Shown piece after piece: positions 50,030 through 55,270 of a DNA stretch of 64,000 nucleotides; the first letter of the stretch is position 1; each line of letters opens with the position of its first letter. Origin of the DNA: a virus. Made by a program: the position numbers and the translations under genes. The notes beneath the pieces were generated by a model. That model had not been told where the DNA came from. It ran no database searches and saw nothing but the letters and a program-made list of their open reading frames with translations. The stretch is from the IMG/VR virus record IMGVR_UViG_3300012943_000002, positions 36,718 through 100,717 of that record. One strand, 5' to 3'.

Positions 50030-50139
50030 AATTTTTAGTTTTAATTATTATTAAATATGGTACATCTACACTAAACCACAATACTTATAGAAATAAGTAT
50101 TATTACGAGAAAGCTATTAACAGTTACTGTAGATGTTTG

Positions 50140-50279
50140 TAGGGGGAAGTAGACTCGAACTACTGACCCTTTTATACTCAAATCTTTGCGATGTATGCTA
50201 CTTTTCTAGTCTTTTCACATGCCAAATTACCGGATTCATATTGTATAATAGTTGCTCTAGCCAACTGAGCTATCCCCCT
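50140..50279 (-). ncRNA. tRNA-like RNA (140 nt) with anticodon arm replaced by a long irregular hairpin
   Basis: Acceptor AGGGGGA/TCCCCCT, TA, D-arm GCTC-AGTTGGCTA-GAGC, T-arm AGTAG-TTCGAGT-CTACT. Confidence 0.8.
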
Positions 50280-50348
50280 ATAGAGTTCCCCTGTAGAGAA
50301 CAGGAGAACTTCCCTCAAAACTAACTGCTTAAAGAACAGAGTTTATAA

Positions 50349-53636: not shown

Positions 53637-53720
53637 AATAGCATAGTGGACTCGAACCACTTCCTTTAGAGTACTAGCGCTATTGTTGACTCTAATGCTC
53701 TACTAATGAGCTAATGCTAT
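53637..53720 (-). ncRNA. tRNA-like RNA (84 nt) with enlarged, non-canonical anticodon arm
   Basis: Acceptor ATAGCAT/ATGCTAT, TA, D-arm GCTC-ATTAGTA-GAGC, 7-bp stem TTAGAGT/ACTCTAA closing 16 nt, T-arm AGTGG-TTCGAGT-CCACT. Confidence 0.8.
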
Positions 53721-53793
53721 ATAAAAACAGCCAATTTCGTAGCACATTCAAAAACTACTAGTTGGCTGTTGTTGTTATTAATCACTACTATTT

Positions 53794-54184: not shown

Positions 54185-55270
54185 TTAATCTTTTACTATA
54201 TAATCTGTATTAACAATTATATCATTAACTGACACACTAGCTTTATTTAATTGGCTTAGTATATCTATATTACTCCAATGCGTTAACTTAGCTTTTACAC
54301 TGTCTCTACTTATTTCCAAATAACCTTTAGCTCTCCAAGGTGCTATATGAGTTCTACCATCTGATGCTGGTATAGTTCTATAATATAAAGTAGTATTAAA
54401 TATACTACTTGGTGCTCCCGGAATTGGTGGTACAAATGAAATACCTATGTATTTATCTGCTGGTGCTGCTCTACCTTCCAATACATATCTAGCTTTAGCT
54501 CCTCCTAAATAATCAGCTAACTTAATAACATTACTCTCTATAGTATCATCTGGATACAATCTAGAATATGTATTTAAGTAATGAGTTATTTGTTCAGAAG
54601 GTATATCTCCTTGCCAGTCTATAGATTCTAATTTTCTTTTAGACTCTGTAGATAATGGAGCATTATAATCTAACATTCTTGTGCTTATTACTGGTAATAA
54701 TACATTTGAATATCTTTTAGATAAACTAAAATACTCATTAGTATCCATTAATATACTTTCTCTAATTGGTGTAATAAAGCTATCTCCTCTAAATGTTTCT
54801 ACTAATGTAGCAAAATCAGCAGAGTATTTATTTATACTTTTTATGTTTACTGTAGGACTATTGCCTCTATATAACCAATAAGCTCCTGTGTCCTCTATTC
54901 TAATATGAACAAGAATACCTTTAGGATAATATACTTTAACACAACTATCTAATCTTAATAATTGATGTATTGCTGATAATTCAGCAGTATCAACTAGTTC
55001 AGTTGCAATAGTTTTTCTACCTCCCCATGCTGTTAATATAGGAATAGGAATATTTTTATCAATACTATCACTAATTACTTTCCTTATCTCTACTAGATTT
55101 TCAATCTCTGGAACAGAACCTAATCTTATATTCTTATCACCTACCAGTATAGTAGTGAGAATATTTAATAGGTTCTTGTCACTTGGAGTAATAACCTTAT
55201 TAAATGTAGATGATAAATAATTTTCAATGACACTTTCATAAGGATCATCGTTTAATACTTTGATTTTCAT
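54185..55270 (-). CDS. PvcA/DIT1 (isocyanide-synthase)-like protein
   Basis: PIPILTAWGGRK...VDTAELSAI..L..L...V...YPKGI.VHI..ED and late APW, matching the PvcA/DIT1 motif order. Confidence 0.55.
   Translation of the reverse strand: MKIKVLNDDPYESVIENYLSSTFNKVITPSDKNLLNILTTILVGDKNIRLGSVPEIENLVEIRKVISDSIDKNIPIPILTAWGGRKTIATELVDTAELSAIHQLLRLDSCVKVYYPKGILVHIRIEDTGAYWLYRGNSPTVNIKSINKYSADFATLVETFRGDSFITPIRESILMDTNEYFSLSKRYSNVLLPVISTRMLDYNAPLSTESKRKLESIDWQGDIPSEQITHYLNTYSRLYPDDTIESNVIKLADYLGGAKARYVLEGRAAPADKYIGISFVPPIPGAPSSIFNTTLYYRTIPASDGRTHIAPWRAKGYLEISRDSVKAKLTHWSNIDILSQLNKASVSVNDIIVNTDYIVKD

What the first reader, a model, noticed from the sequence alone, without database searches (positions are those of the whole stretch)
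50140..50279. tRNA scaffold carrying an ~85-nt hairpin in place of the anticodon arm
Seen: intact acceptor stem, U8-A9, D-arm, variable-loop-like GGGTC and T-arm with TTCGA, but the anticodon arm is a long nested stem (ttatac/gtataa, aatc/gatt, tttg/caaa, atgtg/tacat, cta/tag) with no 7-nt anticodon loop and no encoded CCA. The insert is far too short for a group I intron, and the D-arm excludes tmRNA. Inference: a tRNA-mimic ncRNA matured by RNase P/Z that displays a cargo hairpin, e.g. a decoy for anticodon nucleases or other tRNA-sensing defences, or a tRNA with an unknown intron type.
Basis: partly seen in the sequence, partly recalled or inferred. Interest (0 to 1): 0.8.

Follow-up and report, generated by a model that had tools for sequence, protein, structure and literature searches.

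The report
Phage tRNA gene with split anticodon loop
A crAss-like phage carries a well-preserved tRNA-shaped gene whose anticodon loop is interrupted by 66 extra bases, one more case of the still unexplained inserts in phage tRNA genes; it is either a tRNA look-alike that cannot read codons or a tRNA that needs an unknown kind of splicing.

Summary
The tRNA scaffold is real. It lies on the minus strand, 50279 to 50140, and scores 38.6 bits against the Rfam tRNA model (cut-off 29) when searched locally. Acceptor stem, D arm, T arm and the tertiary-pair bases are all intact.

The "cargo hairpin" is not supported. The 89-nt arm folds no better than shuffled sequence (z = +0.14), and only its 9-bp basal helix is solid.

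With introns allowed, ARAGORN reads a 75-nt tRNA plus a 66-nt insert between U33 and position 34. A second interrupted tRNA (53720-53637, 13-nt insert) has the same junction: U33, then ACAAUA, and AGUA on the far side. These are the only tRNA-like genes in the 100.7-kb genome.

I found no orthologue, no RNA data, and no phage gene for an RNA ligase, splicing endonuclease or Ro60.

The nearest scaffold relatives are unannotated crAss-phage tRNA genes beside Ro60 (TROVE) genes. One of them carries a 69-nt insert at the same 33/34 site.

- **Best reading (about 0.42):** a permanent, non-decoding tRNA mimic.
- **Main rival (about 0.3):** an intron-bearing tRNA.

This scan has already noted many similar inserts on other DNA, so I class it as a new variant of a known, unexplained kind.

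The parts
50140..50279 (-). Whole tRNA-shaped gene (el1), 140 nt, from A1 at 50279 to discriminator A73 at 50140
   Evidence: Rfam RF00005 38.6 bits, E 7e-7, model positions 1-71. ARAGORN with introns allowed gives 75 nt plus a 66-nt insert. Sequence read.
50273..50279 (-). Acceptor stem, 5' strand AGGGGGA. It pairs with 50141-50147 (UCCCCCU); 7 of 7 Watson-Crick pairs.
50254..50272 (-). U8-A9 and the D arm GCUC-AGUUGGCUA-GAGC, with A14, G15, G18, G19 and A21 present
50243..50253 (-). Two-base linker AA, then the 5' strand of the basal helix, CUAUUAUAC. In ARAGORN's reading this is anticodon stem CUAUU, then A32-U33, then the first two insert bases.
50179..50244 (-). 66-nt AU-rich insert between U33 and position 34. 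It begins ACAAUAUG and ends GAUUUG. It is single-copy and its fold is no better than chance.
   Evidence: ARAGORN intron. Fold z = +0.14. blastn against the whole genome.
50165..50178 (-). AGUAU (positions 34-38 if the insert is removed), the 3' strand of the stem AAAAG, and a 4-nt variable loop GGUC
50140..50164 (-). T arm AGUAG-UUCGAGU-CUACU, acceptor 3' strand UCCCCCU and discriminator A. No CCA is encoded.
50284..50310 (-). 10-bp hairpin ending 4 nt upstream of the tRNA 5' end. A similar hairpin precedes the second element.
   Evidence: Read from the sequence. Not tested further.
53637..53720 (-). Second interrupted tRNA (el2). It has a 20-nt anticodon loop, which is a 7-nt loop plus 13 extra nt. 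It shows the same junction: U33, then (CA)ACAAUA, and AGUA on the far side.
   Evidence: Rfam tRNA 51.1 bits. ARAGORN with introns allowed. Sequence.

Best explanation
The element is a real tRNA-derived gene. As transcribed it cannot decode, because 66 AU-rich bases sit between U33 and position 34.

I think it most likely works as a permanent, non-decoding tRNA mimic.
- **Inferred from the intact scaffold, not shown:** it is transcribed with the minus-strand replication genes. Host RNase P and RNase Z trim it, since it has a 7-bp acceptor stem and discriminator A. The host CCA-adding enzyme extends it.
- **Inferred from there:** it occupies or recruits a protein that recognises the tRNA elbow together with the conserved junction (7-bp helix, then ACAAUA, and AGUA on the far side) that it shares with the phage's only other tRNA-like gene.
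- **Candidate partners, none shown:** a host tRNA-cutting defence nuclease, a tRNA-binding enzyme, or a host Ro60/Rsr-type protein.
- **Shown:** the scaffold, the insert position, the shared junction, and the absence of any recognisable splicing or ligation gene in the phage.
For: - The scaffold is fully canonical and scores as tRNA, so it is maintained rather than decayed.
- As encoded there is no anticodon arm. ARAGORN by default finds no tRNA in the whole 100,717-bp genome.
- If the insert is removed, the product is odd for a decoding bacterial or phage tRNA. It has A34. It has an A.A mismatch in the anticodon stem. It has 2 nt instead of 1 between the D and anticodon stems, and a 4-nt variable loop.
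- The tRNA body does not look like tRNA-Thr. Bacterial tRNAs with this acceptor and D arm are Ile(UAU) and Met/Ile2(CAU). Its 40 nearest among 853 ordinary tRNAs are Ala, Met, Ile, Val, His, Gly and Pro, with none Thr.
- Two scaffolds that are not close paralogues (different acceptor stems) share the same junction motif. That fits a grafted module better than two independent anticodons.
- The phage has no RtcB, RNA ligase or tRNA-intron endonuclease. No bulge-helix-bulge and no ribozyme family match was found.
- The closest scaffold relatives have a 5' half 97% identical over 31 nt and compensatory T-stem changes. They are unannotated insert-bearing tRNA genes just downstream of TROVE/Ro60 genes in crAss-like phages cr112_1 and cr106_1.
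- Non-decoding, tRNA-mimicking partner RNAs of Ro60 (YrlA) are established biology (PMC4201824).
Against: - There is no expression, end-mapping or binding data.
- There is no homologue, so no covariation or conservation supports the insert.
- The insert has no significant structure, which is odd for a functional cargo or docking domain.
- The phage has no detectable Ro60/TROVE or DUF2828 gene.
- The insert lacks the conserved motifs of the common phage insert classes.
- Both window elements, and cr112_1, keep U33 before the insert and a purine at position 37 after it. Removal therefore recreates a proper 7-nt loop, which is what an intron would predict.
Confidence: 0.42

Rival explanations
1. 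It is an intron-bearing tRNA. The 66 nt (13 nt in the second gene) are cut out at 33/34 by a protein endonuclease not yet recognised. A host ligase such as RtcB then joins the halves. The product is a decoding tRNA that ARAGORN labels Thr(AGU), serving the phage's commonest threonine codon.
For: - Removing the insert gives a 75-nt cloverleaf with loop AU-AGU-AU. Removing 13 nt from el2 gives a perfect 72-nt tRNA with loop (C/G)U-AGU-AC.
- ACT is the top Thr codon, 1109 of 1977.
- The scaffold relative in cr112_1 becomes a clean tRNA-Phe(GAA) when a 69-nt insert at the same 33/34 site is removed.
- In 26 other viral contigs, removing a 46-69-nt insert at or next to 28/29 restores a perfect anticodon arm.
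- Unexplained introns in phage tRNAs are in print for Lak megaphages (PMC6784885).
- An unstructured, unconserved insert fits a spacer that is thrown away.
- Bacteroides thetaiotaomicron, a Bacteroidota control genome, has RtcB.
Against: - No known bacterial or phage mechanism removes such inserts.
- There is no bulge-helix-bulge. The 5' junction lies inside a continuous helix.
- The phage has no ligase or endonuclease gene.
- A34 is rare outside tRNA-Arg in bacteria (my own knowledge).
- There is a stem mismatch and an off-register anticodon helix.
- The body does not resemble tRNA-Thr.
- Two very different genes for the same anticodon would be redundant.
Confidence: 0.3
2. It is a dead tRNA gene. 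An ordinary phage tRNA was disabled by a chance insertion in its anticodon loop and has not yet decayed.
For: - There is no orthologue. Relatives at 60% helicase identity have a 112-aa ORF at the syntenic spot.
- The insert has neither structure nor repeats.
- There is an anticodon-stem mismatch.
Against: - No defect appears in about 56 scaffold positions, including all the tertiary-pair bases.
- A second gene is interrupted at the same place with the same junction motif.
- The genome is tightly packed.
- Insert-bearing tRNA genes recur widely in phages.
Confidence: 0.15
3. It is a miniature tmRNA-like or peptide-coding RNA. The insert holds a 13-codon frame (MNPVIWHVKRLEK, then a stop) inside a tRNA-like frame.
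For: The frame exists. The layout, a tRNA-like domain with a coding insert in place of the anticodon arm, recalls tmRNA.
Against: - ARAGORN's tmRNA search is negative.
- There is no Rfam tmRNA hit.
- The element has G3-C70, not the G3.U70 alanine identity pair.
- A full D arm is present.
- The peptide lacks a hydrophobic degradation-tag end.
- A frame this short is expected by chance.
Confidence: 0.03

Closest known systems
'Enigmatic' tRNA introns of Lak megaphages (Devoto et al. 2019, PMC6784885)
   Same: These are phage tRNA genes interrupted by short inserts that are not group I introns. They have no known removal mechanism. They were found by re-running tRNA finders with introns allowed, exactly as here.
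   Different: - The Lak inserts are conserved across genomes.
- Intron-free alleles exist for them.
- One Lak insert is itself tRNA-shaped.

The insert here is an orphan, is not tRNA-shaped, and leaves a non-canonical arm (A.A mismatch, A34).
YrlA-type Y RNAs, the tRNA-mimicking partners of Ro60/Rsr (Chen et al. 2014, PMC4201824; Rfam RF02553)
   Same: These are non-decoding RNAs with canonical D and T arms and a tRNA-like elbow. They occur in bacteria and phages. M. smegmatis YrlA is cut by RNase P and receives CCA. The scaffold relatives of el1 lie next to TROVE genes in crAss-like phages.
   Different: - YrlA is circularly permuted: its ends lie in the Ro-binding stem and its acceptor stem is closed by a loop. 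Here the acceptor is open and the insert is closed.
- No Rfam YrlA hit was found.
- The GNCGAA motif is absent.
- This phage has no TROVE gene.
Insert-bearing phage tRNA genes with 28/29 modules ('helix + CAGCAA' and '...GUUACUUC' classes), seen here in IMG/VR and noted earlier by this scan
   Same: The same general design: an intact tRNA scaffold with a 46-76-nt insert in the anticodon arm, widespread in viral contigs.
   Different: - Those inserts sit at or next to 28/29 in the stem and carry conserved motifs. Their removal restores a perfect arm with an ordinary anticodon.
- el1's insert is at 33/34 and has neither motif. Removal at 28/29 restores nothing.
Unannotated tRNA genes of crAss-like phages cr112_1 (MT774388, 71905) and cr106_1
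   Same: - Near-identical 5' half, with compensatory T-stem changes.
- The same ACAA trailer.
- A 69-nt insert, which in cr112_1 is at the same 33/34 site.
   Different: - Their inserts carry the GAGUUACUUC motif, repeated in neighbouring small RNAs beside a TROVE gene.
- Their removal gives a clean Phe(GAA) or Thr(UGU).
- el1's insert is unrelated in sequence.
Phage T4 species 1 RNA (rnaC, 139 nt)
   Same: A stable small phage RNA of unknown function in a tRNA cluster. It has a canonical T arm and paired ends, and it is of similar length.
   Different: - It has no D arm.
- It is strongly structured (z = -4.6, against -1.2 here).
- I did not test for sequence similarity.

Membership tests
tRNA (Rfam RF00005) | Score at or above the gathering threshold, with acceptor, D and T arms aligned | tested here: met
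   38.6 bits against a cut-off of 29, E 7e-7, model 1-71, in a 321-nt search. It was missed in the 64-kb and 8-kb searches, which I attribute to the speed filters.
tRNA (Rfam RF00005) | A contiguous 5-bp anticodon stem with a 7-nt loop | tested here: not met
   ARAGORN by default finds nothing. The Rfam alignment marks non-standard pairs and a 71-nt insertion. No 17-nt window in the arm forms a proper stem-loop.
Intron-containing tRNA (generic) | Removing one contiguous insert restores a canonical cloverleaf | tested here: inconclusive
   ARAGORN with introns allowed gives 75 nt with loop AU-AGU-AU. But it has an A.A stem mismatch, a 2-nt linker at position 26, a 4-nt variable loop and A34. 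Under strict geometry the best score is 1.75, against 6.75 for good cases.
Group I intron in a tRNA | A ribozyme core of about 200 nt or more that matches the intron model | tested here: not met
   The insert is 66 nt. No Rfam match other than tRNA was found at E up to 10.
Archaeal/eukaryal protein-spliced tRNA intron | A bulge-helix-bulge at the splice sites, and a splicing endonuclease plus ligase available | tested here: not met
   The predicted junction is a continuous helix followed by a 5x2 internal loop. The phage has no PF01974, PF01139 or PF09414. Host enzymes were not testable.
tmRNA | Detection by ARAGORN or Rfam, a G3.U70 pair, and a tag reading frame | tested here: not met
   ARAGORN's tmRNA search is negative. 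No Rfam hit was found. The element has G3-C70.
YrlA / Y RNA with Ro60 | An Rfam RF02553 match, or the GNCGAA motif on a stem formed by the RNA's ends | tested here: not met
   No hit was found. The motif is absent from the sequence. The topology is not permuted.
YrlA / Y RNA with Ro60 | A Ro60/TROVE gene in the same genome or nearby | tested here: not met
   Searches with PF05731, PF11443 and the cr112_1 TROVE protein found nothing in the 100.7-kb genome. A host Ro60 was not testable.
Phage 28/29 insert classes (CAGCAA and GUUACUUC) | An insert at 28/29 that starts with UA and carries helix + C.GCAA or ...UUACUUC, and whose removal restores the arm | tested here: not met
   Removal at 28/29 fails. 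There is no TTACTTC on the minus strand in 50-57 kb. At the invariant C of C.GCAA (alignment A2), el1 has U (UCGCAA).
Lak-type 'enigmatic' phage tRNA introns | The same insert conserved across related phages, with insert-free alleles | not testable with these tools
   No orthologue was found in viral, metagenome or GenBank phage collections.

The most novel reading that the evidence does not exclude
crAss-like phages split their own tRNAs at the U33/34 bond, which from my own knowledge is the bond that PrrC-type anticodon nucleases cut. A cut-and-rejoin route (an unrecognised endonuclease plus host RtcB) then matures them. That would be a protein-dependent tRNA splicing pathway in the bacterial world. 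Alternatively, the uncut forms act as baits that block such nucleases.
Probability: 0.2. Interest if true: 0.8.

Novelty: new variant of a known kind. Interest (0 to 1): 0.45.

Why it matters
Bacteria and their viruses are not known to remove tRNA inserts other than self-splicing group I introns.

If these insert-bearing genes are spliced, an unknown RNA cut-and-join route exists in phage-infected bacteria. If they are not spliced, phages make a diverse set of tRNA-shaped RNAs that do not decode. Such RNAs would probably engage tRNA-binding host proteins such as defence nucleases or Ro60.

There is also a practical lesson. Standard annotation reports no tRNA in this complete genome, so such genes are systematically overlooked.

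This locus adds one orphan example with a junction shared by two genes. It is a compact test case, but it settles nothing by itself.

Tried and rejected
**Orthologue searches, all empty**
- Helicase-anchored loci at 60%, 36% and 31% identity or less.
- Whole records of two relatives. These hold only an ordinary tRNA-Cys.
- GenBank phages.
- Scaffold patterns in viral contigs and in metagenomes. One search was wasted on a spacing error of mine.
- A pattern for the junction shared by the two elements, which gave one chance hit.
- An 'ACTTACAAT' handle pattern, which returned only what look like 3' tRNA fragments, perhaps attachment sites.

**RNA evidence and gene context**

**Functional links tested and dropped**
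- Phage splicing or Ro60 genes: none.
- A link to the neighbouring PvcA-like protein: homologues in 8 viral loci have no insert-bearing tRNA nearby.
- Repeats of the insert, or antisense targets for it: none.
- The TTACTTC motif: not enriched. ACAAT alone is uninformative.

**Other points**
- A covariance model of the CAGCAA class was not built. MAFFT did not put the variable hairpins in register.
- tmRNA, group I, BHB and YrlA were each considered and rejected (see the membership tests).
- ARAGORN's 'Thr' label is not backed by the tRNA body.

Full report
**What is there**

The feature lies on the minus strand, A1 at 50279 to A73 at 50140. Its parts are:
- Acceptor stem AGGGGGA/UCCCCCU, 7 Watson-Crick pairs.
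- U8-A9.
- D arm GCUC-AGUUGGCUA-GAGC.
- T arm AGUAG-UUCGAGU-CUACU.
- A GGUC variable loop and discriminator A.
- ACAA in place of CCA.

Every base that builds the tRNA elbow is present: U8, A14, G15/C48, G18, G19, G53, U54, U55, C56, A58 and C61.

ARAGORN with default settings finds no tRNA in the window or in the whole genome. Rfam at first reported only a second, smaller interrupted tRNA at 53720-53637. When 321 nt were searched alone, the Rfam tRNA model hit the element at exactly these coordinates. The score was 38.6 bits against a cut-off of 29, with a 71-nt insertion and a badly aligned anticodon stem. I attribute the earlier miss to the speed filters, since the same model found it in the short search.

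**The hairpin**

Thermodynamically they are ordinary:
- The 89-nt arm gives z = +0.14 (113 of 200 shuffles fold as well).
- The whole element gives z = -1.16.

Only the basal helix is convincing, 9 positions with one A.A mismatch. The insert is single-copy and has no antisense target in the genome.

By contrast, the RNA directly downstream (50136-50062) is significantly structured, at z = -3.1.

**Where the insert sits**

With introns allowed, ARAGORN reads a 75-nt tRNA plus a 66-nt insert (50244-50179) between U33 and position 34. The stem is CUAUU/AAAAG and the loop is AU|AGUAU.

The second element becomes a perfect 72-nt tRNA after removal of 13 nt, with loop (C/G)U|AGUAC. These two are the only tRNA-like genes in the 100,717-bp genome.

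Their acceptor stems are unrelated, yet both show the same layout:
- A 7-bp helix ending in U33.
- Then, after 0 to 2 bases, ACAAUA.
- AGUA immediately before the returning strand.
- A strong hairpin 4 to 5 nt upstream of the 5' end.

I estimate the chance of sharing AGUA at that position at roughly 1 in 100, allowing for register freedom.

**Is it tRNA-Thr(AGU)?**

The label rests only on the shared AGU.

For it:
- ACT is the commonest Thr codon, 1109 of 1977.

Against it:
- A34 is rare in bacterial decoding tRNAs (my own knowledge).
- The stem has a mismatch and the helix is one base out of register.
- Bacterial tRNAs with this acceptor and D arm are Ile(UAU) or Met/Ile2(CAU).
- None of the 40 nearest among 853 ordinary tRNAs is Thr.

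**Genome context**

The genome is a complete virus record with direct terminal repeats. The element lies in a 472-nt gap of the replication module, between a DUF3846 gene and family A DNA polymerase, near a Dda-like helicase.

Relatives at 60% helicase identity have a 112-aa ORF at that spot. They carry only an ordinary tRNA-Cys elsewhere.

No orthologue turned up in viral contigs, metagenomes or GenBank phages. Covariation therefore cannot be tested.

**Comparable genes elsewhere**

A loose scaffold pattern returned more than 120 viral stretches. Of the 122 matches, 66 have a closed acceptor stem. In 26 of those, removing a 46-69-nt insert at or next to position 28/29 restores a perfect anticodon arm with an ordinary anticodon.

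Two motif classes recur in those inserts: helix + C.GCAA, and ...GUUACUUC. The window element has neither motif, and removal at 28/29 restores nothing.

Its nearest scaffold relatives are unannotated tRNA genes of crAss-like phages cr112_1 and cr106_1:
- The 5' half is 97% identical over 31 nt.
- The T stem shows compensatory changes.
- The same ACAA trailer follows.
- They lie just downstream of TROVE (Ro60) genes.
- They sit among small RNAs that repeat the GAGUUACUUC motif.

The cr112_1 gene scores 50.2 bits as tRNA. After removal of a 69-nt insert at the same 33/34 site it reads tRNA-Phe(GAA).

**Mechanism**

The phage encodes none of the following:
- RtcB.
- An RNA ligase.
- A tRNA-intron endonuclease.
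- TROVE or DUF2828.

The junction has no bulge-helix-bulge, and no ribozyme family matches.

The only established biology for non-decoding RNAs with canonical D and T arms is YrlA with Ro60 (PMC4201824). The only printed precedent for such inserts in phage tRNAs is the unexplained Lak introns (PMC6784885).

I therefore favour a permanent tRNA mimic (0.42) over an intron needing unknown enzymes (0.30) and a recently disabled gene (0.15). Processing by RNase P and RNase Z, CCA addition and any protein partner are all inferred, not shown.

The strongest argument for the intron rival is that all three 33/34 inserts keep U33 before the insert and a purine at position 37 after it.

**Earlier notes of this scan**

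Notes on other genomes had already described three things:
- 28/29 mini-inserts.
- Anticodon-less tRNA-shaped phage RNAs.
- 'Handle'-tagged tRNA mimics beside Ro60-like genes.

I re-derived the first from my own scans. I also saw the TROVE neighbourhood myself. I could not show that the window element carries any of those handles.

**Limits**

One scan was wasted on a spacing error. The host is unknown.

Noticed in passing
window 53637-53720 (-): A second interrupted tRNA (Rfam 51.1 bits) with a 20-nt anticodon loop. The loop holds the only exact copy in the window of the 8-nt palindrome UAGCGCUA, which could let two molecules pair loop to loop. Its D loop lacks G19.
   Followed up: partly
window 50062-50136 (-): A structured RNA starting 3 nt after the tRNA-like gene. 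A perfect 9-bp helix (ACAUCUACA/UGUAGAUGU) encloses an 11-bp hairpin and a stretch that resembles an Asn anticodon arm (AGUAA-CUGUUAA-UAGCU). Fold z = -3.1.
   Followed up: partly
window 50284-50310 and 53725-53770 (-): Each of the two tRNA-like genes is preceded, 4-5 nt upstream, by a strong hairpin of 8-10 bp. The one before the second element is followed by a U run.
   Followed up: no
window 54185-55270 (-): A 361-aa protein with no Pfam or PHROG hit folds confidently (pLDDT 91). It matches the isonitrile synthases PIsnA and PvcA (Foldseek E 1e-9) and, more remotely, TyrRS and cyclodipeptide synthases. It has 82 homologues, several of them on roughly 90-115-kb contigs. No conserved link to tRNA-like genes was found.
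   Followed up: yes
L097, L098, L100, L016, L116 and others (IMG/VR loci): At least 26 viral tRNA genes carry 46-69-nt inserts at or next to position 28/29. Removing the insert restores a perfect anticodon arm. Two motif classes recur: helix + C.GCAA, and ...GUUACUUC.
   Followed up: partly
L127 1230-1830 (cr112_1, MT774388 about 71630-72230) and L128 1320-1680 (cr106_1): The unannotated RNA region downstream of the TROVE/Ro60 genes holds insert-bearing tRNA genes and Y-RNA-like stems. The motif (G/C)UUACUUC occurs five times in about 600 nt of cr112_1. No Rfam family other than tRNA matches there.
   Followed up: partly
L159 801-891 (cr112_1): The annotated 91-nt 'tRNA-Ile' has a 24-nt anticodon loop (stem UCACA/UGUGA). 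It is another expanded-loop tRNA in a crAss-like phage.
   Followed up: no
L137 about 1365-1416 and L133 about 600-655: Directly after a tRNA-Ala lies a helix + ACAGCAA motif, followed by only the 3' half of a tRNA-Asn. This may be a split or permuted tRNA.
   Followed up: no
window 50198-50239 (-): A 13-codon frame (MNPVIWHVKRLEK, then a stop) lies inside the insert. No ribosome-binding signal was noted, and it is probably chance.
   Followed up: no
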